Origin: Candidatus Gottesmanbacteria bacterium GW2011_GWC1_43_10
GTDB taxonomy: Bacteria; Patescibacteriota; Microgenomatia; UBA10105
Assembly: GCA_000995415.1 (NCBI GenBank)
Contig: LCEX01000008.1
Location: 8,398 to 72,397 of the forward strand
Direction of reading: 5' to 3'
DNA: 64,000 nt
The position numbers and the translations under genes are program-made. Shown in pieces: positions 11,047 to 61,477 of this stretch (position 1 is the first letter of the stretch; the number at the start of each line of letters is the position of its first letter). A model generated the notes under the pieces. The model was given only the letters and a program-made list of their open reading frames with translations, did not search any database and was not told the DNA's origin.

Positions 11047-11140
11047 TAATTATCCAATAATCCAATTTCAAATTCTCAAATTATCCAATTTTTTATTGGT
11101 ACTTATTGGATAATTGGATAATTTGCTGATTGGATAATTT
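11047..11140. repeat. AT-rich word-palindrome (ATTATCCAAT / ATTGGATAAT arms) between uxs and the gmd-like gene
   Basis: ATTATCCAATAATCCAAT...ATTGGATAATTGGATAAT imperfect inverted repeat. Confidence 0.5.
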
Positions 11141-13538: not shown

Positions 13539-13650
13539 AAATTTAAAATGTAAATATCAAAATGCAAAATGACAATGTGAAATTTTAAAATTAGTATATC
13601 TTTTTACATTTTTAACTGTCATTTTGATTTTTGCATTTTGCACTTTGCAT
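13539..13650. repeat. AT-rich imperfect palindrome (AAAATGCAAAATGACAATG / CTGTCATTTTGATTTTTGCATTTTGCAC) between the rmlD-like gene and ugd
   Basis: Inverted arms built from the same words as 12104..12245. Confidence 0.5.
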
Positions 13651-14526
13651 TTATATGATCCCTTGTCTCTTTATTTCTTCCAAACCTTGACCAAATGCCC
13701 TCATTGTAACTCCCAAAGAAGCTATTTTATCATTTTTAAGACGTAACTCAAGGGGCCGCGGCGCCCGACCTTGGTAATAGCCGGCAGTTTTGACACCAGT
13801 TATCAATCGCTCATCAAAACCAAACTGTCTGGCTAAAACCTGTGCCGCCTCAAAGGGTGAAAGGGACGCGCCTCCTACTCCATGATAAATTCCTGAGGCA
13901 TTTTTAGCAATAAGGGTTTCAATGCTTTTGGCAATATCATCTATAAAAGTAGGCGTAAAAATATGGTCAGTTAAAACCGTCAATGATTCGTTTCTCTGCA
14001 AACGATGATACAGTGTATGAACAAAATCTTTTTTAGGGCCACCGCATTTGGCACGGTAAGGATAAGCTATGCGGAGTACTATATTTTGAGAGCTATTAAG
14101 CACCACTTGTTCACCTGCATATTTAGTTTGACCATACCAATTGATAGGATGCGGAATTGAATTTTCGGTATAAACTTTTTCCGTTCCGTCAAATACAAAA
14201 TCTGTAGAGATATAAAGCACTCGTTTATGAAACTGGTCTGCTGCTTCTACAATATTTCTGGTGCCTTCGACATTGATTTGCCAGGCAGCGCCTGTTTGAC
14301 CTGCTGATTTATCTTTTTCGCAGCCGTCAACATCGGTTTTGGCAGCCATATGGATCACCCATGCGCTTTGTGAATTTTGTATGTGTTTTGTGACGACTTC
14401 TTTTTGGGTGATATCAACTCCAGTTGCCAAACTTAAATCGGTAAATGAGTATTTGGAATCCAAAAGTTCCACTATTCGTGTACCCACCAAACCTGAAAGG
14501 CCAGTACCAAGGATTACTTGTTTCAT
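13651..14526 (-). CDS. dTDP-4-dehydro-6-deoxyhexose reductase (RmlD family)
   Basis: 291 aa. YISTDFVFDG matches the RmlD STDYVFDG motif. N-terminal GTGLSGLVG. Confidence 0.65.
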   Translation of the reverse strand: MKQVILGTGLSGLVGTRIVELLDSKYSFTDLSLATGVDITQKEVVTKHIQNSQSAWVIHMAAKTDVDGCEKDKSAGQTGAAWQINVEGTRNIVEAADQFHKRVLYISTDFVFDGTEKVYTENSIPHPINWYGQTKYAGEQVVLNSSQNIVLRIAYPYRAKCGGPKKDFVHTLYHRLQRNESLTVLTDHIFTPTFIDDIAKSIETLIAKNASGIYHGVGGASLSPFEAAQVLARQFGFDERLITGVKTAGYYQGRAPRPLELRLKNDKIASLGVTMRAFGQGLEEIKRQGII

Positions 14527-26038: not shown

Positions 26039-26148
26039 AAAATAAATTCAAAAGTTAAAATTCAAAAGGCAAAAGTTCAAGTTAAAAATCAAAAGTTCCT
26101 TACCTTTAAATTTTGAATTGTACTTTTGACTTTTGAATTTTGAATTTT
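26039..26148. repeat. 110-bp AT-rich palindrome (CAAAAGT / ACTTTTG words) separating ftsE and ftsX
   Basis: AATTCAAAAGTTAAAATTCAAAAGGCAAAAGTTCAAG...TTTGAATTGTACTTTTGACTTTTGAATTTTGAATT. Confidence 0.5.
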
Positions 26149-35212: not shown

Positions 35213-37398
35213 TTACCTGCCTAAATATTTTTTAATTTTCTCTTCTATTCCTGATGTGGCTTTTTGTGTCAGATCTTTTATTTGTTTGGTATAAAACGCA
35301 ATTTTTTCTTGCAACAAAACCGAAACAAAACCTTTGAGCTGGTCCCGGTTCATGAAACAAGTTAACGGTTCTTTTTGGCAATCTGTATAAAACTTGATGG
35401 TTGTAGTTTGCGGTAAACTATTACCATTAATTTTTAAGGCAACTTCTGACTGGGCGCTTCTTGATGCTACAAAATCGACAAAGAATGGTTCAAATCTTGT
35501 ATCCAACTGCCCGGGAATTTGGGCTGTAATTGGGGCTGCTTCATCAAGTTTCGCTTCCAATGACTGGACTCTTGTTGGACGCGACAAAATGGAAAGCGCA
35601 ACTACAAATAAACGAATTGGGTTACGTCCGGCAATTGCCGTCGTATTGGCCCAATAAAAGGTTGAGGTCCCAGGATCAAGAGGCAAAGCTCCCAGATCTG
35701 GCTGAAAGATAGGAGCCAATTCTTTGACTTGGGAATCAGTTAAAGTCAGGGGTGTGATTTTCCAAATTTCTTGATCTTTAGTAATGGTCGCCATTTTGAT
35801 TTGCTCAAGTTTGGGAGTTTCCCAACCCAGAGCGAGCGTGTTGTTTGCTTGGTCAGGGATTATGAAAAACCTCGGATGTTTGGCAAAAGTAATAAACTGC
35901 GGAGTATTGTTACTTAGTATTTCAACAAGTGTCATCTTGACCGGACTCACAAAACCACTATTTAAGTTGTTTGTTGTAATAAAATCCGGCTCCAGTGTGA
36001 TCCGGCTGTTGTCTACTGTAATTTCCACCACTTCTTTTTCCTGTTTAACTTGAGCTTCAGATGCGCCGGATAATTTAATCCCAAAGGGTTGGACTCCGTC
36101 GTCAGACCGTACCGGATGGCCGGCATAAATATCAGGATTGGAAGGTACCTTTTTGACAGTATATTGCTGCGAACCGTCAATGGTATAAGGCACGATCCAA
36201 TAAGCGCGCGATACTTGAGCAGCTTGGGTCTGGTAAACATCGGTTAGAGGTGAAAAATTTCTAAGATCTGTAAGCAACAAATCTCCGCCAATCACCTGGA
36301 TCCGCGCCCGATACGTGCGGCCAAAGTACCAGAGCACCGTCCCTTCCTCGGGAAAGCGCGGACTTTTAAGCATCCGGCTAGAATTTAGAGGAGTTTGATT
36401 TTTGAAAAGTACCGCGTATTCATGTGGTGAAAAAACTTTGATTTCGCCTGTTTTTTGTTTTTGGACTATTTGCGCCAGTTGTTTTTGATATTCGGCTTTA
36501 AAGTCAACCCACTCGGCTGAATTTTCAAGCCCTAAAAGAATGAGTCCGACATCTTTTTGAGCAATCATTTGATCAAGTAGACTGGTGAAATAATTGGTGC
36601 CAGGAGTCTTAGGATTTTGTAAATAATCATTGGGCTGTGAAGTAAAATACGTAAAAGAGGATCCGTAGTTTCGGTCAAGATCACTTATGGTTTGGCGCAC
36701 CATTACAAGATCAAGTTGACTAGCTTTGTCTGGAGCGGGAATCAGCGGATGACCCAAAGAGGGATAATAAGGAGCATCAAAAATCCCCCCATAAAGCGTA
36801 TAACTGTCTGTTTCATATTGTTCTTTTGTGATTTCATGAAGTTCTACTCCGTATTCATCATGAATGTATTTGAGCGACCAGGCATCAACCATCCAGGCGA
36901 CTGTAAATGTAGGGAAATAACCAAACTGGGTATGAAACTCGCCAAAAACTGTATCAATCAATTGTTTGCGTTCAGTCTGGGTGTAACCGATGAGAAATGC
37001 ATTACGCGCCGAGTACCAATCAGATCCGCTGCTTTCACCTTTGTAATTCACGGCGCTGGCTGAAGCAAGTTGGGGGGTGATTTCCAAAAGAATTCCCAAA
37101 GATTGAGCCCGGGGTAAATTTTTGATTTTTTCAATAGTTGCGCTATCTACCAAAGCATCGTATCGCAGAGCCCAAGCCAAAGGTAAGTTTTTATTTTCAT
37201 CGAGCGAATTGATCTCCGAAAATATATCCGAGGTTCCCCCATGACAACAGGTTTGGGGACCCAACAGGTTTGGGGACCACGGATTTGGTGAATAATCACA
37301 GCATGAGAACCCAAGGATTCTGCACGAACCGGTAATGAGACCAGACTGACGACAAAAATAAAACTTAAAATAATCCCGATTCCGCGAATAATGTTCAT
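35213..37398 (-). pseudogene. Large secreted protein gene split by a 17-bp tandem duplication (signal-peptide ORF 37147..37398 plus body ORF 35213..37264)
   Basis: Removing one copy of CAACAGGTTTGGGGACC (37246-37262 / 37263-37279) joins MNIIRGIGIILSFIFVVSLVSLPVRAESLG...IRGPQTC in frame to CHGGTSDIFSEINSL... of the 683-aa ORF. Confidence 0.6.
37246..37279. repeat. Perfect 17-bp tandem duplication (CAACAGGTTTGGGGACC x2) causing the frameshift in the secreted-protein gene
   Basis: Read directly from the sequence at 37246-37262 and 37263-37279. Confidence 0.9.
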
Positions 37399-51910: not shown

Positions 51911-52139
51911 TTGACCTATTTAACCTCAATTACGAAATGAACGAAACTAAATTTATTTTCACTTGTTGAAACAGTATCAATTTCTTGGATATTTGCTTCT
52001 GTCATAAGTAACTCCTTTCAATATTTTTAAAATATAGTTAACCTACTAAAGCCTGTGTCACTCATTCTAAGTAGTTGTAGGGTCTACTGAATATTTTTGC
52101 ACAGGTTGGTTCCCGCCGCTATCCGGTATTATCCTACAA

Positions 52140-53245
52140 TCATGGTGTATATGTGCCTAAAGTTACCGAACCACCTGACGAGGTTGAATACTTCCAAGTG
52201 TATGGGGGGTTGGAAATTTGATCGTACGATAAACTAAGCGACTTACTTTGACCTGGAGAAAGCGGAAGATTAGTGATATTTTCGTTGTTCGGCGTACCAA
52301 GAGTTTGGCTACGCATGCTCAATCTAATTACCATTACGTTTTGCTGACTTGACCCAGTATTGGTAAATGTGACGTTTATAACCAGCTTATTCCCACTAAC
52401 GTTGGCTGAAGTGATAACACCTGTGATACCGGATTCAAGAGTCTGAGTTCCAGAGGAAACAAATTTAGAGCTAGGTGTTGGCGTGAGAACGATAGACGCA
52501 ATGGGTTGGGGTATAGTTGCGGATGTCTTGGGTGTTGGCGTGGGAGTTGGTGAAAAAAAACTATTGTTGGAGATAAAGATGTTGTAGAAAAAAATGATCT
52601 GGCGACCTGAAAAAGGGTTTCTATTGGTTGGTCAGGAGTGGAAATGGAAACTAAAGTATTATCTGAGGTAATTAAGTACAAAAAAAGTGGATGAAACGAA
52701 GAAGAGTTGGTAGTTGTTTGAACAAGAAAGGCATTTGATTCAGATGAAACTAAACTAACAAGTAAAACACTTCGAGACGAGGAGGCACTGGCTACCTTAT
52801 CTACAAAAGTTTTCAAATCAAAGTCACTACTGACTCCAACTTGACGAACAATAATAAGAGGGATACTTCCTGAAACTTGCCCTCGGAGAGGCGCACTGAT
52901 AACTGTCTGGACTGCTCCATCGAGTTCCGGACTAAACTTTTCACCAGTTTTGTAAATACTATCAATGACCAGTCCTGTTGGAGGCTTAATTTCATAAAGG
53001 TGGAAATTCACCATGGAGACTGCTTTCTTGTACCAATAATCGGTATGGTTGAGATAGTAAGCGTTAAAAGCAATATAAATAGAGGTGATAACGACAGGCA
53101 AACAAATCAAAGCAAAAATAACTAACCAGATTTTTTGGCGGGTTGAGACATGAGGGTTGTCTTCGGAAAAAGCGTTTCGGTTCTTTAGAGCCAAAAAAAT
53201 AACGATAATAGTAAAAATAGCGGTGGGATCTAGAAATAGATTCAT
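52140..53245 (-). pseudogene. Surface protein (N-terminal TM, PT linker, C-terminal beta domain) interrupted by a +/-1 frameshift at an A8/T8 homopolymer
   Basis: ORF 52376..53245 and the frame ending at 52140 overlap. Manual translation past the homopolymer at 52553-52560 gives ...SFFSPTPTPTPKTSATIPQPIASIVLTPTPSSKFVSSGTQTLESGITGVITSANVSGNKLVINVTFTNTG..., continuous with ORF 52140..52334. Confidence 0.5.
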
Positions 53246-53727
53246 GGTTGGTTTGCTTGAACAGCAGAATTTGCTGCAGTATACTTTGGTAACTGATAAG
53301 CAATTATGCTTCCCAACGTGAAGGCAGTTAAATATAACACGAGAGAAAAGATGATTATTAGCTTAATACCGAGGTAAGAACCGGTTTTAATCTTGAAAGC
53401 ACAATAAAAAAGAGCGAGACTGGAAGCAACAGTTACGACTGGATATACTAGTATCAAAGGCATGATAGTAATCATAGAATAAGGCAGCATTCCTACCTTC
53501 GACGTGACCTGATTTAAGATAACTATTACGGCCAAGGTTTTGTAGGCGTTAAAAAGATATAAGAGAGACAGTATGAGAGTAAGCCAAAAAATAAGATTGG
53601 CCGACTTGGGCACTTCTTGAATTGTTGGTCCTGAAACAATGATTGATGTGGAAGGCGAAACTTCGGACGACTTTTGAATGTGTGGTAATAGGATGTTTGA
53701 ATCTACCATTACTTTAAGTATACACAA
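53242..53727 (-). CDS. Hypothetical polytopic membrane protein
   Basis: 161 aa, 4 TM. Confidence 0.4.
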   Translation of the reverse strand: MCILKVMVDSNILLPHIQKSSEVSPSTSIIVSGPTIQEVPKSANLIFWLTLILSLLYLFNAYKTLAVIVILNQVTSKVGMLPYSMITIMPLILVYPVVTVASSLALFYCAFKIKTGSYLGIKLIIIFSLVLYLTAFTLGSIIAYQLPKYTAANSAVQANQP

Positions 53728-53810
53728 TATCTTTTGTGTGTAAACCCAAATCTATATTGACACCGCCAAAAATATAGTACCATAAATATGGTATTTAATG
53801 ATTTGGGGTT

Positions 53811-54377
53811 ATGGCAAAAAAAGGACGAAGCACCTCTCAAATTAAATGGCTCGTAATCCCGCTTATACTTATTGGTCTGGTGGCAGCATTTGTTTTCTTT
53901 AAAGGGAATACTGAAACAAAACCATCTGAAAGCACTGCATATCGGGTTTATCAAAATTCAGAGATTGGTTTTAGTATCAGCTATCCCGAGAGTTGGGAAT
54001 TAAGAAGTGATACTCAAGCATTTGAAAATGGAGATATCGTATCCTTCAATAAAACCGGCCCGACCCAAAAAGCCCAAACAGAGATAACTGACGGAGCGCG
54101 CTTAAGTATCGCTATACCATTTGCGATCAACACTGATCTTAAATCCTGGTTAAAAGACAACTTTAGTAATGAAGCAAAATTTTCGCAAATGACGTTTGGT
54201 GGTGTGACTTTTGAACAAGTAAATGAATGCTATATTGGCTGTTTTATATACTTCTATACACTCAAAGATGGGAAAGTATTTGGAATGGCTACTTTTGCCG
54301 CAGGCGATGACAGCTATAAAATGGTTTATGAAAATGCGCTCTTGACCATGCTTAAATCATTTAAGTTTGACAATTGA
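53811..54377 (+). CDS. Secreted or membrane-anchored hypothetical protein (SYPxxW motif family)
   Basis: N-terminal TM. GFSISYPESWELRSD motif is shared with ORF 54839..55690 (YEISYPKNWQLDES). Confidence 0.45.
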   Translation: MAKKGRSTSQIKWLVIPLILIGLVAAFVFFKGNTETKPSESTAYRVYQNSEIGFSISYPESWELRSDTQAFENGDIVSFNKTGPTQKAQTEITDGARLSIAIPFAINTDLKSWLKDNFSNEAKFSQMTFGGVTFEQVNECYIGCFIYFYTLKDGKVFGMATFAAGDDSYKMVYENALLTMLKSFKFDN

Positions 54378-54838: not shown

Positions 54839-55690
54839 TTATTTTACTGCATTCCATGTATCAGTGGCTAAATCTTGACGCTCAACTACCCATGTCTTGG
54901 GACTCACGCGGTACCAGTTAAAGGTTGTCGTATGGTCGGGAAATATTTCGTAAACTTGAACTACATAATATGGTATTTCTATGGTTGGCGACCGGTCAAT
55001 GCGAACAGTAAAAACTGAACGATCTCCAATGTCTACCTGTTTTTTAAAGGCAATTACTTCCGCAACTTTTTCCACAAGATTGCGCGCTTTGATTTCGTCT
55101 GCATTTGGTCCAGTGCTTTTGAATGACTGGATAATATTAGTTATGGCCTTAATATCTTCCCCCTGCTCAAAATTGATTCGAACGGTGTAAAAATCCCCTG
55201 ACTCGCCAAAAAATGTATATTCACTAAACTCCAGCTGTTTTCCTTCTTCTTTAAATGTTCCCTCTATCAAAAAAGCTTGGTTGCCATTGATTTCCACACT
55301 TTCATCAGAAGTAATTGAGTAATCCCGATTTTGGTCATATGCATCCATCAGGTTTTTGATAAGAGCTGTTTTTCCGCTATCTGAGGTCAACCGCTGATCA
55401 TATTGCGGCTGTATATATACTTTGACGCGCTTTTCAGGACTGACTATGATAACCGCCGGCGCTTCCTGTTTTGATTCATCAAGTTGCCAATTTTTTGGAT
55501 ATGAGATTTCATAACCATTTCCTTGATACACAATAAGGCCCGATCCACTATTTGAATTGCCAATCTGCTGCTCCAAAGAATACTTTGGTGAACGATAGAA
55601 TATAATAACGACCACTGTCACTAACACCGCGCCAATCACCCACCATAAAGGTTTAATAGTTATTTGTTTGCTTTTCTGTTTCTTTTTCAT
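54839..55690 (-). CDS. Secreted or membrane-anchored hypothetical protein (SYPxxW motif family paralog)
   Basis: N-terminal TM, YEISYPKNW motif. ATGA overlap with the upstream RDD gene. Confidence 0.45.
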   Translation of the reverse strand: MKKKQKSKQITIKPLWWVIGAVLVTVVVIIFYRSPKYSLEQQIGNSNSGSGLIVYQGNGYEISYPKNWQLDESKQEAPAVIIVSPEKRVKVYIQPQYDQRLTSDSGKTALIKNLMDAYDQNRDYSITSDESVEINGNQAFLIEGTFKEEGKQLEFSEYTFFGESGDFYTVRINFEQGEDIKAITNIIQSFKSTGPNADEIKARNLVEKVAEVIAFKKQVDIGDRSVFTVRIDRSPTIEIPYYVVQVYEIFPDHTTTFNWYRVSPKTWVVERQDLATDTWNAVK

Positions 55691-56670
55691 TGTTTATTTT
55701 TCACCGCCGTTATTTTTTTACTTGGAATAAGTTTATTCTCTTGCAAAATCGAAAAAACTAGCATTCCTACCAACCCAGAAAATAATAATCCAAACCAAAT
55801 TCGCCATAACCAGATAAAAAACTGACCTTTGATAACTAAAATATCAACTTTATTGTCTCTATCAAAATCAAAGCCATCGATCCGGCCATCGTTGTTTAAA
55901 TCAATAGATTCAGCTACTCCATCAGAATCTGCATCCATGGTCGTAAACTCAACCACCCGATCATTATTCAAATCATATTTGAACACATCGGCTTTTCCAT
56001 CTTCATCTGCGTCAATTGCTAACCCATCAATAAGCGTATCCTGATTGAGATCAACAAACGTTACCTGATTACTCTCAACATACTTAGTTAGCTTTTCACC
56101 AAAGCCATGTATTATTAAAGTCATTAAAAAAAACCCAACTAATCCAAACATTCCCAATTGAATTTTTGGTATCGAATTCTTCTCAAACTTTTCCACATAC
56201 TCAACTTTCGTTTTTGCAACAAAGTCATGAAGCGCCCGCTTGTCTTTTTTATCAAACAAAATTGTAACCCAACCTATCATCAAAAACGCAAACATACAAA
56301 ATCTAACTAATATTTGCCACACTTTTAACGGCTTTTCGTCCTGTGAAATAATTTTTATGCGAACAAGCATCATCGCCGGAGTAGCTCCAAAAAATAGCCA
56401 GAAGAAAAAGAAATATGCCAGAGAAATTAAAATGATGATATATCCAGCACTTGTGAGACTACCACGAAAGGCAAGCAAACTCGTGAGTATATCAATGATA
56501 GCCAAGTCTGTACCCAAACAAATAGCGCGCACCCAAATCCCAGCCGGTTCACTTTTTTTAATCTTGTCTTGATTTCTTTTGCGGATAAATATCAGTAATC
56601 CCACTCCTACCACAGTAGTCAATAATCCGCTCAAAACTTGCCAAACAATAGAAAATTCTAAAATTTGCAT
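55687..56670 (-). CDS. RDD-family membrane protein with C-terminal extracellular Ca-binding (dockerin/EF-hand-like) Asp-rich repeats and terminal TM
   Basis: WVRAICLGTDLAIIDIL...DKKDKRALHDFVAKTKV RDD block. DADEDGKADVFKYDLNNDRVV...DADSDGVAESIDLNNDGRIDGFDFDRDN repeats. Confidence 0.6.
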   Translation of the reverse strand: MQILEFSIVWQVLSGLLTTVVGVGLLIFIRKRNQDKIKKSEPAGIWVRAICLGTDLAIIDILTSLLAFRGSLTSAGYIIILISLAYFFFFWLFFGATPAMMLVRIKIISQDEKPLKVWQILVRFCMFAFLMIGWVTILFDKKDKRALHDFVAKTKVEYVEKFEKNSIPKIQLGMFGLVGFFLMTLIIHGFGEKLTKYVESNQVTFVDLNQDTLIDGLAIDADEDGKADVFKYDLNNDRVVEFTTMDADSDGVAESIDLNNDGRIDGFDFDRDNKVDILVIKGQFFIWLWRIWFGLLFSGLVGMLVFSILQENKLIPSKKITAVKNKQ

Positions 56671-58436: not shown

Positions 58437-59411
58437 TTATTTTTTCCCGGTTATCATATTAAGAAATTTGTTTTCCTTAATAATTGTAAAAACGAGCAAG
58501 GATACAAAACCTGCCACCCCGACACCAAACAGGACTTTCCTCAACAAGATAGCATTTTGACCATCGGCAACTTTTACATCCAATATGTTGTCATTATCAA
58601 AATCAAAACCATCTATTCTTCCGTCATTATTTATGTCTAGAGACTCAGCCACTCCATCTTTATCAGCGTCAAAAGTAGTCAAGTCAACCACGCGATCGTT
58701 GTTAAGGTCATATTTGAATGTATCAACAACGCCATCATTATCAACATCCATAGTCAATCCATCCGACAAGCCATCATTATTAAGATCAAAAAATGAGATT
58801 TGATCATTTTCGGTAATCCCCGTCAGTTTTTCTCCCAAACCACCAATAATCAAACCTATCAGTAAAGCAATAGTCAGGCCAAGGAGGACAAACTTAAGTT
58901 TGGGCACCCATTTATCGACTTGGCTTTTTTCTGTTTTTTCGGTAAAGACAACCCGGGTTTTGGACACCAAATCATGCAGGGCTTTCTTTTCTTTCTTATC
59001 AAAAAGCAGAGGTATCCAGCCAATAAATAAAAATATAAACGTCATCAGTCTTAATGTCACTTGCCACACTGTGAGCGGCTGACCGTCTTGGGAAACGATT
59101 TTTATCCGAGCTAAAATCATCGCCGGAGTCGCTCTAAAAAATAGCCAAAAGAAAAAGAAATAGGCCAGTGTCACTAAAATCGTCACGTGTCCACTAGCTG
59201 CGAGAGTTCCGCGATAAGCCACTAAACTTAGCAAAAGATCAATAATCGCTGCATCTGTTCCAAGACAAATAGCCCGTACCCAAAATCCTGCAGCTTTGTT
59301 TTCCTTGACATCGTTATCAGCTCTTTTACGAAAAAAAGTAATGAAGCCAACACCTACTACTAGTGTCACTAAGGCGCTTATAAATTGTGCTAGAATCAGA
59401 AATTCAAACAT
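58437..59411 (-). CDS. RDD-family membrane protein with Ca-binding Asp-rich repeats (paralog of 55687..56670)
   Basis: FWVRAICLGTDAAIIDLL, DKKEKKALHDLVSKTRV, DVDNDGVVDTFKYDLNNDRVVDLTTFDADKDGVAESLDINNDGRIDGFDFDNDN. Confidence 0.6.
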   Translation of the reverse strand: MFEFLILAQFISALVTLVVGVGFITFFRKRADNDVKENKAAGFWVRAICLGTDAAIIDLLLSLVAYRGTLAASGHVTILVTLAYFFFFWLFFRATPAMILARIKIVSQDGQPLTVWQVTLRLMTFIFLFIGWIPLLFDKKEKKALHDLVSKTRVVFTEKTEKSQVDKWVPKLKFVLLGLTIALLIGLIIGGLGEKLTGITENDQISFFDLNNDGLSDGLTMDVDNDGVVDTFKYDLNNDRVVDLTTFDADKDGVAESLDINNDGRIDGFDFDNDNILDVKVADGQNAILLRKVLFGVGVAGFVSLLVFTIIKENKFLNMITGKK

Positions 59412-60898: not shown

Positions 60899-60976
60899 GA
60901 AAAAATAAAAAGCAAGAATTTCTTGACGCGGTATCTGTGTTTTTGATAACCTAACATCAGGAAAATAAAAAACGAT

Positions 60977-61477
60977 ATGAGCTCAACTCAATTTTGGGTA
61001 GCTGTATTTGTGCCGCAGATTATAGAGCGGATTAGTCCTCATTTTAAACGTCTGTTCGCCCTCAAGGAGTTTGACTCTCAAACACAACAACGAGTATCTT
61101 CCAAGGAGTATCCAGCTTTTTATGCGCTTTTATATCTTTTGTGGGGCATTAGTTTGATAAGTTTCGGCTGCGTGCTTCTTCTATTTATAATCATTTATAT
61201 GACTCAGCTTGTGCCTCAAGAAAAATATGGTCTGATCATTTGGTTCGGGCTGATTATGTTTTTGGGCTCGTTTATGATTCCCGGAGCCTTACTTGATTTC
61301 CTGTTTTGGAGCATTTCTCCGGAAAACTTTAGAGATTATGTCAAATTCAGACTCATCAAATCCGGCTGGGGATATGAAATGCGTGATCAAATAATGACAC
61401 TTTTCAAAATTGGTCTCATCTATCTCCTACTGACTTCGCCTCTGGTTATCTACTTATTATATTTATTGTTCCGTTAG
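60977..61477 (+). CDS. Hypothetical membrane protein
   Basis: 166 aa, 3-4 TM, no motif recognised. Confidence 0.35.
   Translation: MSSTQFWVAVFVPQIIERISPHFKRLFALKEFDSQTQQRVSSKEYPAFYALLYLLWGISLISFGCVLLLFIIIYMTQLVPQEKYGLIIWFGLIMFLGSFMIPGALLDFLFWSISPENFRDYVKFRLIKSGWGYEMRDQIMTLFKIGLIYLLLTSPLVIYLLYLLFR

What the first reader, a model, noticed from the sequence alone, without database searches (positions are those of the whole stretch)
52140..53245. Surface protein gene broken at an A8/T8 homopolymer, a candidate phase-variable locus
ORF 52376..53245 is an N-terminal TM protein. Its C-terminal approximately 50 codons translate as a low-complexity run that looks like out-of-frame sequence. In the -1 frame a P/T-rich linker (PTPTPTPK...TPTPSS) and an Ig/CARDB-like beta domain continue to the stop at 52140. 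The frames switch at the 8-nt homopolymer at 52553-52560. Homopolymer slippage is a classic phase-variation mechanism. Together with the 17-bp duplication above, this makes two surface proteins in this window that are switched off by small repeat changes.
Basis: partly seen in the sequence, partly recalled or inferred. Interest (0 to 1): 0.6.

Follow-up and report, generated by a model that had tools for sequence, protein, structure and literature searches.

The report
Real frameshift truncating an envelope protein
A membrane-anchored envelope protein gene of an uncultivated groundwater bacterium (Candidatus Gottesmanbacteria) really is split by a missing base in a run of eight T's, but the run has the same length in every assembly that carries it, so it looks like an ordinary inherited truncation allele and not a demonstrated on/off switch.

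Summary
The minus-strand ORF 53245..52376 reaches a T8 run (52553-52560). The -1 frame then carries a Pro/Thr linker and a beta-sandwich domain to the stop at 52140. One extra T gives a 368-aa protein that aligns end to end with two intact orthologs.

It is not a sequencing error. The identical 289-aa product is indexed in 43 assembly blocks, and 17 fetched contigs on at least five SNP backgrounds all have exactly T8.

Phase variation is not supported. No T6, T7, T9, T10 or T11 product exists in about 15 billion proteins. The only in-frame allele has an interrupted tract (TTTCTTCCT). The orthologs have no tract at this site, and every other run of 7 or more bases is equally invariant.

Profile searches show a fusion of two modules. 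The shift lies in the linker, 12 residues after the point where stand-alone homologs of the N module end. The truncated product therefore keeps a complete 2-TM anchor and PsbP/LpqN-like ectodomain and loses only the Ig-like C-domain.

Best reading: a recent, stably inherited domain-loss allele that segregates with an intact allele. Low-level rescue by +1 transcriptional slippage at U8 is plausible but untested. A programmed -1 ribosomal frameshift has no support.

The parts
52376..53245 (-). Annotated ORF of the frameshifted (T8) allele: 289 aa plus stop. Residues 1-231 are native sequence and 232-289 are an out-of-frame tail.
   Evidence: The identical protein (EKE00410.1, HCM37513.1, KKS40663.1, KKS54124.1) is in 43 assembly blocks.
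53183..53227 (-). Transmembrane helix 1 (about residues 7-21)
   Evidence: Hydrophobicity; AF2 helix 7-21
53051..53134 (-). Transmembrane helix 2 (about residues 38-65). The K/R-rich loop before it suggests that the following domain faces outward; this is an inference from the positive-inside rule.
   Evidence: AF2 helix 35-65
52589..53245 (-). N module (residues 1-219): a 2-TM anchor plus an alpha/beta ectodomain with a PsbP / MTC28 / LpqN / DcrB-like fold. This module is complete in the truncated product.
   Evidence: The profile search finds about 100 homologs in which this module ends at the protein's own C terminus. The alignment shows stand-alone 214-225-aa homologs ending at window residue about 219. 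AF2 pLDDT is 85 and pTM 0.74. Foldseek hits are MTC28 4pws, PsbP 2xb3/2vu4, LpqN 6e5d and DcrB 6e8a.
52553..52560 (-). T8 homopolymer (A8 on +) inside GTT TTT TTT CAC, where the frame is lost. One more T, or a -1 ribosomal slip on U_UUU_UUU, restores the 368-aa frame.
   Evidence: Exactly 8 in 17 of 17 contigs that carry the run.
52379..52552 (-). Out-of-frame tail of the T8 product (58 codons, Leu/Pro/Gln/Arg-rich)
52473..52553 (-). Pro/Thr-rich linker in the true (-1) frame (restored residues 232 to about 258)
   Evidence: pLDDT is below 50 in the model.
52140..52472 (-). C module in the true frame: an Ig-like beta sandwich (restored residues about 259-368) plus the stop codon. It is not translated from the T8 allele unless slippage occurs.
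   Evidence: Conserved in P0002 and P0003. About 45 homologs carry it at the C terminus of other proteins. pLDDT is about 80-87. Foldseek hits are YjhA 3cfu (E 1.8e-4) and YcdA 4r4g.
52553..52574 (-). The four positions that distinguish the T8 allele from the in-frame allele: 52574 A/T (Leu/Phe), 52557 T/C, 52554 T/C and a 1-nt C indel at 52553. The tracts read TTTTTTTT versus TTTCTTCCT.
   Evidence: L013 shows no other difference in 2.5 kb.
52553..52609 (-). Local polymorphism hot spot: 7 of the 10 variable positions of the 1,106-nt gene fall in these 57 nt. It includes a Q/E site (52609) that is found on both the T8 and the in-frame background.
53242..53727 (-). Upstream small multi-TM ORF. 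Its stop overlaps the gene's ATG by 4 nt. The pairing is conserved in ortholog contigs, so co-transcription is likely (inference).

Best explanation
The locus is a genuine, heritable frameshift allele of a lineage-specific two-module envelope protein of Candidatus Gottesmanbacteria (Rifle aquifer population).

The ancestral gene encodes a 2-TM anchor, a PsbP/LpqN-like ectodomain, a Pro/Thr linker and a C-terminal Ig-like beta sandwich. In this lineage the start of the linker became a T run that is one base short of in-frame (T8). Ribosomes therefore leave the native frame after Phe231, add 58 nonsense residues and stop at 52376.

The product keeps the complete N module, an architecture that exists naturally as a stand-alone family. 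It loses the linker and the Ig-like domain. This is domain loss and not full inactivation.

The T8 allele dominates the population and is stable at consensus level. It co-exists with a rare in-frame allele in which the run is interrupted (TCT TCC TCA).

Shown: the break, its reality in DNA, its invariance, the intact orthologs, the in-frame allele, and the modular architecture.

Inferred:
- The run arose by C-to-T changes in the Ser codons (giving T9) followed by a 1-nt slippage loss, or alternatively by a short recombination patch.
- The truncated protein retains N-module function.
- A small percentage of transcripts may gain a U by backward RNA-polymerase slippage and yield full-length protein.
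For: - Frame structure and restoration.
- Full-length orthologs with no run at the site.
- Not an artefact: the identical product is in 43 blocks, from IDBA-UD, MEGAHIT (k127, k141), SPAdes and JGI assemblies of Illumina HiSeq data.
- 17 of 17 run-bearing contigs, on at least five SNP backgrounds, have T8.
- No T6, T7, T9, T10 or T11 products exist in the collection.
- The in-frame allele TTTCTTCCT is on L012, L013 and L018.
- All other runs of 7 or more are length-invariant.
- There are no A/T runs of 9 or more in the window, against 7.7 +/- 2.7 expected. This fits T9 being unstable or counter-selected. Baranov 2005 (PMC1088944) reports selection against runs becoming evident at 9 nt.
- Modular architecture, with the shift 12 residues past the natural end of the N module.
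- The population shows other short dense-difference patches, which fits recombination mosaics.
Against: - Consensus contigs cannot reveal minority tract lengths, so low-frequency T9 cells are not excluded.
- The downstream 137 codons are still open and are identical at protein level to the in-frame allele.
- The single SNP found downstream among T8 alleles (52440, L001) is synonymous in the true frame. This is what continued use of that frame would predict, but n = 1 and the split is very recent.
- The direction of change between the two alleles cannot be polarised. The T8 allele keeps the ancestral Leu at 52574 and the in-frame allele has a derived Phe.
- Four differences within 22 nt, against zero in the other 2.5 kb, is not explained by simple stepwise mutation.
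Confidence: 0.6

Rival explanations
1. Contingency locus. The run switches reversibly between T8 (short isoform, OFF) and T9 (full length, ON) by replication slippage, at a rate high enough to be adaptive, for example to escape a phage or host factor that recognises the Ig-like domain. The population is simply held in the T8 state.
For: - The run is intragenic, in an envelope protein, and exactly one slip from in-frame.
- The downstream frame is fully intact.
- Both truncated and full-length alleles exist in the population.
- Polymorphism clusters around the run.
- 'C-terminal phase variation' by late homopolymers is described in Helicobacter canadensis (PMC2823697).
Against: - No tract-length variant is seen in 17 contigs or 43 blocks, and none among the exact products looked up.
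- The ON allele has an interrupted run and not T9.
- The orthologs lack the run.
- T8 runs occur at chance frequency and none of them varies.
- A/T runs of 8 are at the lower margin of known switch tracts (own knowledge).
Confidence: 0.15
2. Recoding. The T8 allele is expressed as two isoforms. Most product is the 289-aa N-module protein. A fraction of full-length protein is made by +1 U insertion during transcription of the U8 run, or by -1 ribosomal slippage on the in-phase U_UUU_UUU heptamer, and this dual output is maintained by selection.
For: - The heptamer is in phase (GTT TTT TTT).
- The needed correction is a +1 insertion, the dominant transcription error in A/T runs (PMC5574713).
- Productive slippage on runs of 8 A is documented: apoB gives about 10% full length, and some Deinococcus and Nostoc IS elements use 8 A (PMC1088944).
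- The downstream ORF is intact and the only downstream SNP is synonymous in that frame.
- The allele dominates over several sampling campaigns.
Against: - There is no stimulatory structure downstream (MFE -3.2 kcal/mol, z +0.29).
- By inspection, there is no SD-like element upstream.
- U_UUU_UUU is a weak shifter in E. coli compared with A_AAA_AAG (PMC5009743).
- The site is not conserved in orthologs, so it is not an evolved recoding signal.
- Traverse and Ochman found no pseudogene frame restored by transcription errors in Buchnera.
- 8 nt is below the 9-nt threshold at which selection against slippage is usually evident.
Confidence: 0.15
3. Sequencing or assembly artefact. The true sequence is T9 and the gene is intact.
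For: Homopolymers are classic sites of indel errors. The downstream frame is perfectly preserved.
Against: - The same T8 appears in at least 17 contigs from several BioProjects and four assemblers, on Illumina data.
- SNP-distinct strain backgrounds all carry T8.
- All other runs are consistent between assemblies.
- A T9 product is absent from the collection.
Confidence: 0.02

Closest known systems
Frameshift pseudogenes or truncation alleles at mononucleotide runs, as catalogued for prokaryotic genomes (for example by GeneTack, PMC3711429) and as seen in Bordetella pertussis and Mycobacterium tuberculosis homopolymer microevolution (PMC1891110, PMC10334774)
   Same: A 1-nt length change in a short A/T run inside a gene. 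The orthologs are intact. The allele is inherited and segregates in a population.
   Different: The break falls precisely in an inter-module linker, so a complete and naturally occurring module is retained. The alternative allele differs by substitutions that remove the run, not by run length.
SSR-mediated translational or C-terminal phase variation (Neisseria, Campylobacter, Helicobacter; H. canadensis C-terminal switching, PMC2823697)
   Same: An intragenic homopolymer in an envelope protein, where a frame change alters or removes the C-terminal part.
   Different: Those tracts are usually longer poly-G/C and show length heterogeneity within read pools. They recur across strains. Here the tract is T8, invariant, lineage-specific and at chance frequency in the genome.
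Transcriptional-slippage rescue of frameshifted genes (human apoB A8; Blochmannia and Buchnera poly(A) tract genes; IS elements with A8/A9; Baranov 2005, PMC1088944)
   Same: A/T run. The frameshift needs a +1 insertion, which is the preferred slippage direction. The organism has a small AT-leaning genome.
   Different: The run is only 8 nt. There is no RNA evidence and no conservation of the broken state beyond one near-clonal population.
Programmed -1 ribosomal frameshifting (dnaX A_AAA_AAG; IS3 family)
   Same: An in-phase X_XXY_YYZ heptamer (U_UUU_UUU). The -1 product would be the full-length protein.
   Different: There is no downstream hairpin or pseudoknot and no upstream SD-like stimulator. 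The heptamer type is weak and is not conserved in orthologs.
PsbP / Mog1 / MTC28 / LpqN / DcrB-fold envelope proteins (N module) and YjhA/YcdA-type Ig-like lipoprotein domains (C module)
   Same: Predicted folds resemble these (Foldseek probability 0.99 or higher). Two neighbouring genes hit Pfam PsbP or Lpp-LpqN.
   Different: No Pfam family reaches threshold for this protein. TM-scores are modest (0.3-0.5). Function is unknown. The combination of the two modules is seen in only three protein clusters.

Membership tests
Homopolymer-mediated phase-variable (contingency) locus | Intragenic simple-sequence tract positioned so that a +/-1 unit change toggles the reading frame | tested here: met
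   T8 at 52553-52560. T9 or T6 restores the 368/367-aa ORF; T7, T8, T10 and T11 truncate it.
Homopolymer-mediated phase-variable (contingency) locus | Tract length differs between cells, isolates or samples, with ON and OFF lengths both observed | tested here: not met
   17 of 17 contigs have T8. The exact T6, T7, T9, T10 and T11 products are absent from about 15 billion proteins. The only in-frame allele has an interrupted tract. This test is at consensus level only; reads were not available.
Homopolymer-mediated phase-variable (contingency) locus | Tract is maintained in relatives, or such tracts are over-represented in the genome | tested here: not met
   Orthologs L014 and L017 have ACT CAG ACT and ATT CCC AGC at the site. 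The window has 12 runs of 8 against 13 expected, and 0 runs of 9 or more against 7.7 expected.
Homopolymer-mediated phase-variable (contingency) locus | Reversible, high-frequency switching | not testable with these tools
   Needs read-level or culture data.
Programmed -1 ribosomal frameshift | Slippery heptamer X_XXY_YYZ in phase with the 0 frame | tested here: met
   GTT TTT TTT gives U_UUU_UUU. The -1 product reads ...IVFFSPTPTP.
Programmed -1 ribosomal frameshift | Stimulatory element: a downstream structure 5-9 nt away, or an upstream SD-like sequence | tested here: not met
   The 100 nt downstream fold at -3.2 kcal/mol, z +0.29. The upstream sequence is CAACAATAG, with no GGAGG-like motif.
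Programmed -1 ribosomal frameshift | Conservation of the site and of the two-frame organisation in orthologs | tested here: not met
   P0002 and P0003 are single ORFs without the heptamer.
Transcriptional-slippage-compensated frameshift | A or T run long enough for RNA polymerase slippage (usually 9 or more; 8 in some cases), needing a +1 insertion | tested here: inconclusive
   The run is 8 and +1 restores the frame. The literature threshold is usually 9, with exceptions at 8.
Transcriptional-slippage-compensated frameshift | mRNA length heterogeneity at the run, and full-length protein detected | not testable with these tools
   No RNA or proteome data were accessible.
Transcriptional-slippage-compensated frameshift | Purifying selection persists on the downstream frame after the frameshift | tested here: inconclusive
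   137 codons are open. One downstream SNP (52440) is synonymous in the true frame. The test has no power.
Frameshift truncation allele / incipient pseudogene | Orthologs encode one continuous protein that covers both frames | tested here: met
Frameshift truncation allele / incipient pseudogene | The frameshift is present in the DNA and is not an error | tested here: met
Frameshift truncation allele / incipient pseudogene | Loss of function of the product | not testable with these tools
   The N module is complete, so only the C-domain function is certainly lost from the main product.
PsbP/Mog1/LpqN-like fold (N-module ectodomain) | Structural similarity to solved members; Pfam match | tested here: inconclusive
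   Foldseek gives MTC28, PsbP, LpqN and DcrB at probability 0.97-1.0 but TM only 0.3-0.46. There is no Pfam hit.
YjhA/YcdA-type Ig-like beta sandwich (C module) | Structural similarity; Pfam match | tested here: inconclusive
   3cfu_B E 1.8e-4, TMt 0.53. There is no Pfam hit at E < 1 other than a spurious DUF3157.

The most novel reading that the evidence does not exclude
The T8 run is a functional recoding or contingency site in a CPR bacterium. One gene would yield either an N-module-only protein or, through +1 transcriptional slippage, -1 ribosomal slippage or rare T8-to-T9 replication slippage, the full protein with an exposed Ig-like domain. Cells could then display or hide a surface domain, for example one that serves as a phage or host contact. 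The interrupted-run allele would be a 'locked-ON' variant. This would be the first documented slippage-based surface-variation system in the Candidate Phyla Radiation.
Probability: 0.12. Interest if true: 0.55.

Novelty: new member of a known kind. Interest (0 to 1): 0.25.

Why it matters
The practical point is annotation. Public records list this as an ordinary 289-aa hypothetical protein. It is in fact a frameshifted allele of a 368-aa two-module envelope protein, and 58 of its residues are nonsense.

Biologically it documents a segregating domain-loss polymorphism in a near-clonal aquifer population of an uncultivated CPR bacterium. Surface proteins are thought to mediate the episymbiotic lifestyle and phage contact of these organisms.

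If read-level or transcript data showed slippage, the locus would become a rare testable case of stochastic surface variation in CPR. Without such data it is an ordinary homopolymer frameshift.

Tried and rejected
- Pfam scan of the restored protein gave nothing above threshold. Pfam scans of ten distant homologs also gave nothing useful.
- The pattern scan of JGI metagenome contigs for any tract variant returned only the known in-frame contig. The T8 contigs seen through the look-up of encoding contigs are not in that collection, so the scan is uninformative for tract-length frequencies.
- Genome contigs (GTDB representatives): the alignment-based scan found no relative and the DNA-pattern scan found 0 matches. 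The family is absent from, or not captured in, that collection.
- Programmed -1 ribosomal frameshift was rejected: no stimulatory structure, no conservation, and a weak heptamer type.
- A diversity-generating retroelement or paralog gene conversion was considered as the source of the 22-nt difference cluster. No second copy or template of either patch exists in the window at up to 5 mismatches. The changes include an indel and are not adenine-specific. The idea was rejected, although only this 64-kb window could be searched.
- Independent translation of the C module was rejected. The true frame has no ATG, GTG or TTG between the upstream stop and the run, and the first start (52334) lies inside the domain.
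- A dN/dS-type test on the downstream frame was not possible, because only one SNP exists there.
- Polarising the two alleles with outgroups was not decisive.

Full report
**1. Observation**

On the minus strand an ATG at 53245 opens a 289-codon ORF that stops at 52376-52378. At 52560-52553 the coding strand reads GTT TTT TTT CAC, which is a T8 run (A8 on the + strand). Downstream of the run the annotated frame gives 58 Leu/Pro/Gln/Arg-rich residues. The -1 frame reads SPTPTPTPK...TPTPSS followed by a beta-rich domain, and it stays open for 137 codons to TGA at 52142-52140. Inserting one T gives a 368-aa protein.

**2. The continuation is real coding sequence**

A search of 5.8 billion protein clusters with the restored protein found only three relatives.

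- P0001 is a 289-aa product nearly identical to the window's truncated ORF. It differs at one residue in the out-of-frame tail.
- P0002 (364 aa, 56% identity, 100% coverage) and P0003 (374 aa, 40%, 99%) are continuous single ORFs that cover both frames.
- At the site of the run, their DNA reads GTT ACT CAG ACT and GTT ATT CCC AGC. The homopolymer is therefore specific to the window's lineage.

**3. Source, and exclusion of an artefact**

The exact 289-aa product belongs to Candidatus Gottesmanbacteria (GW2011_GWB1_43_11, ACD_22C, DPYH01). It is indexed in 43 blocks of public assemblies. I fetched 17 contigs that carry the run (L001-L011, L019-L024).

- They come from NCBI, JGI and ENA records and were built with different assemblers.
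- They represent at least five SNP backgrounds.
- All of them have exactly T8.

The Rifle data sets are Illumina HiSeq 150-bp reads assembled per sample (PMC5079060). Every other run in the covered part of the window (7 or more A/T, 6 or more G/C) has the same length in all contigs. A sequencing or assembly error is effectively excluded.

**4. Is the run length variable?**

I built the products expected for T6, T7, T9, T10 and T11 on the window background. None exists in the 15-billion-protein collection. The 90% identity cluster holds seven sequences.

- Five are 289-aa T8 variants.
- Two are 368-aa in-frame proteins (P0007, P0008).

The DNA of the in-frame proteins (L012, L013; also L018 from the metagenome scan) does not show T9. 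It shows an interrupted tract, GTT TCT TCC TCA, plus an A-to-T change 20 nt upstream that turns Leu into Phe. L013 differs from the window at these four positions within 22 nt and nowhere else in 2.5 kb.

At consensus level there is therefore a truncated allele and an intact allele, but no tract-length switching. The window has 12 A/T runs of exactly 8 (13 expected under a first-order Markov model). It has none of 9 or more (7.7 +/- 2.7 expected). Runs of 8 are not enriched, and longer runs seem to be purged. This fits the 9-nt threshold reported by Baranov et al. (PMC1088944).

**5. What the protein is**

A full HMMER profile search of 1.84 billion representatives shows that the protein is a fusion of two modules.

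- The N module covers positions 1-219. It recurs in about 100 proteins and always sits at their C terminus. Some are stand-alone proteins of 214-225 aa.
- The C module covers positions about 225-368. It recurs at the C terminus of about 45 unrelated proteins.
- Only this gene, P0002 and P0003 combine the two modules.

The alignment shows the stand-alone homologs ending at window residue about 219 (...VANSL-K/R), which is 12 residues before the frameshift.

The structure predictions are as follows.

- AlphaFold2 with 30 homologs models the N module well (pLDDT 85, pTM 0.74). It has two long TM helices and an alpha/beta domain that ends with helix 208-218. Residues 220-231 are low-confidence linker.
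- Foldseek finds MTC28, PsbP, LpqN, DcrB and SciW-type folds for it (probability 0.97-1.0, TM 0.3-0.46). Two neighbouring genes hit Pfam PsbP or Lpp-LpqN.
- The C domain is a beta sandwich (pLDDT about 80-87). It is closest to B. subtilis YjhA (3cfu, E 1.8e-4) and YcdA (4r4g).
- No Pfam family reaches threshold.

Hydrophobicity and the K/R-rich inter-helix loop suggest that both domains face outward (positive-inside rule, inference).

The T8 allele therefore yields a protein with an intact anchor and PsbP-like ectodomain plus a junk tail, and lacks the linker and the Ig-like domain. It is a domain-loss allele and not simply 'off'.

**6. Recoding hypotheses**

The heptamer U_UUU_UUU is in phase. 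A -1 slip would produce exactly the full-length protein. Several points argue against a programmed signal.

- The 100 nt downstream are unstructured (MFE -3.2 kcal/mol, z +0.29).
- No SD-like element lies upstream.
- U_UUU_UUU is a weak shifter in E. coli (PMC5009743).
- The site is not conserved in orthologs.

An evolved programmed frameshift is therefore unsupported.

Transcriptional slippage is more plausible as leakage.

- Single-base insertions dominate transcription errors in A/T runs, and their frequency rises exponentially with run length (PMC5574713).
- Productive slippage on A8 is known (apoB gives about 10%; some IS elements).
- The needed correction here is +1.

Whether this matters biologically cannot be decided. 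The only downstream SNP among T8 alleles (52440, L001) is synonymous in the true frame and non-synonymous in the nominal frame, but that is n = 1.

**7. Origin of the allele**

The two alleles differ by two T/C substitutions, a one-base C indel and one A/T substitution, all within 22 nt. Outgroups show that Leu at 52574 is ancestral, and the T8 allele keeps it. Each allele therefore carries derived states, and the direction cannot be polarised.

Two routes are compatible with the data.

- (a) C-to-T transitions turn the Ser codons TCT TCC TCA into TTT TTT TCA (T9), followed by loss of one T by slippage. This fits the absence of runs of 9 or more.
- (b) A short recombination patch from a diverged relative. 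The same population shows other dense-difference patches (53705-53883 in L001 and L022), with near identity elsewhere.

Seven of the ten variable positions of the gene lie in 52553-52609. The Q/E site at 52609 occurs on both alleles, which implies recombination or recurrent mutation. No donor copy exists in the window.

**8. The companion claim**

The 17-bp tandem duplication at 37245-37278 does break a signal-peptide protein. Removing one copy gives a 722-aa protein identical to P0157. That intact form is on 17 contigs. The broken 683-aa form is on a single 73.6-kb contig (KKS81832.1), which is probably the source of this window.

One break is thus private to a single assembly and the other is nearly fixed. 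They do not constitute a shared switching mechanism.

**9. Verdict**

The locus is a real, stable, population-dominant frameshift at a lineage-specific T8 run. It truncates a two-module envelope protein in its linker, and it segregates with an intact allele that lacks the run.

Against the defining features of a phase-variable locus:

- the positional feature is met;
- length polymorphism and tract conservation were tested and not met;
- reversibility is untestable here.

I file it as a new instance of a known kind, a homopolymer frameshift or truncation allele. I give modest residual probability (about 0.12-0.15 each) to real switching or to functionally used slippage. Read-level tract counts, metatranscriptome run lengths and junction peptides would settle the matter.

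Noticed in passing
window 37245-37278 (gene 35213-37398, minus strand): A perfect 17-bp tandem duplication (CAACAGGTTTGGGGACC x2) separates a signal peptide from a roughly 700-aa secreted protein. The single-copy (intact, 722 aa) form is on 17 public contigs. The duplicated (683 aa) form is on only one, KKS81832.1 on contig UV55_C0008 (73.6 kb), which is probably the source of this window. It is either a private variant or an assembly error.
   Followed up: yes
window 53705-53883: Contigs L001 and L022 differ from the window by 8-14 substitutions and indels packed into about 180 nt. The patch covers the 5' end of the PsbP-like ORF 53811-54377 and the intergenic region. The contigs are nearly identical elsewhere, which looks like short recombination mosaics in a near-clonal population.
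   Followed up: partly
whole window: There is no A or T run of 9 or more in 64 kb (7.7 +/- 2.7 expected from a first-order Markov model), while runs of exactly 8 occur at the expected number (12 against 13). The cut-off at 9 is sharp.
   Followed up: partly
window 52140-53245, 53811-54377, 54839-55690, with RDD-family genes at 55687-56670 and 58437-59411: A cluster of three membrane-anchored proteins with PsbP/LpqN/DcrB-like ectodomains lies next to two RDD-family membrane proteins. It may be an envelope-protein island of unknown function.
   Followed up: partly
window 51916-52005 (minus strand): A 29-codon ORF (MTEANIQEIDTVSTSENKFSFVHFVIEVK) sits behind a strong GAAAGGAG ribosome-binding site, between the frameshifted gene and the alpha/beta-hydrolase gene. 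Gene callers called it in most of the assemblies.
   Followed up: no
L005 (GCA_000998235.1) against window 58731-58843 and 60944-61052: This GW2011 assembly lacks two pieces of about 110 nt that are present in the window and in other contigs. There are no N gaps at these points, so they are either assembly collapses or real indels in the RDD-family gene and its neighbour.
   Followed up: no
window 11048-11139, 13539-13652, 26044-26148: AT-rich degenerate tandem repeats of period 7-8 nt (and multiples) lie in three intergenic regions upstream of minus-strand genes.
   Followed up: no
L009 and L016 (both from sample ERZ4903055): The T8 allele and the intact 56%-identical ortholog P0002 occur in the same sample. 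A related Gottesmanbacteria species with a full-length gene therefore co-exists with the truncated-allele population.
   Followed up: no
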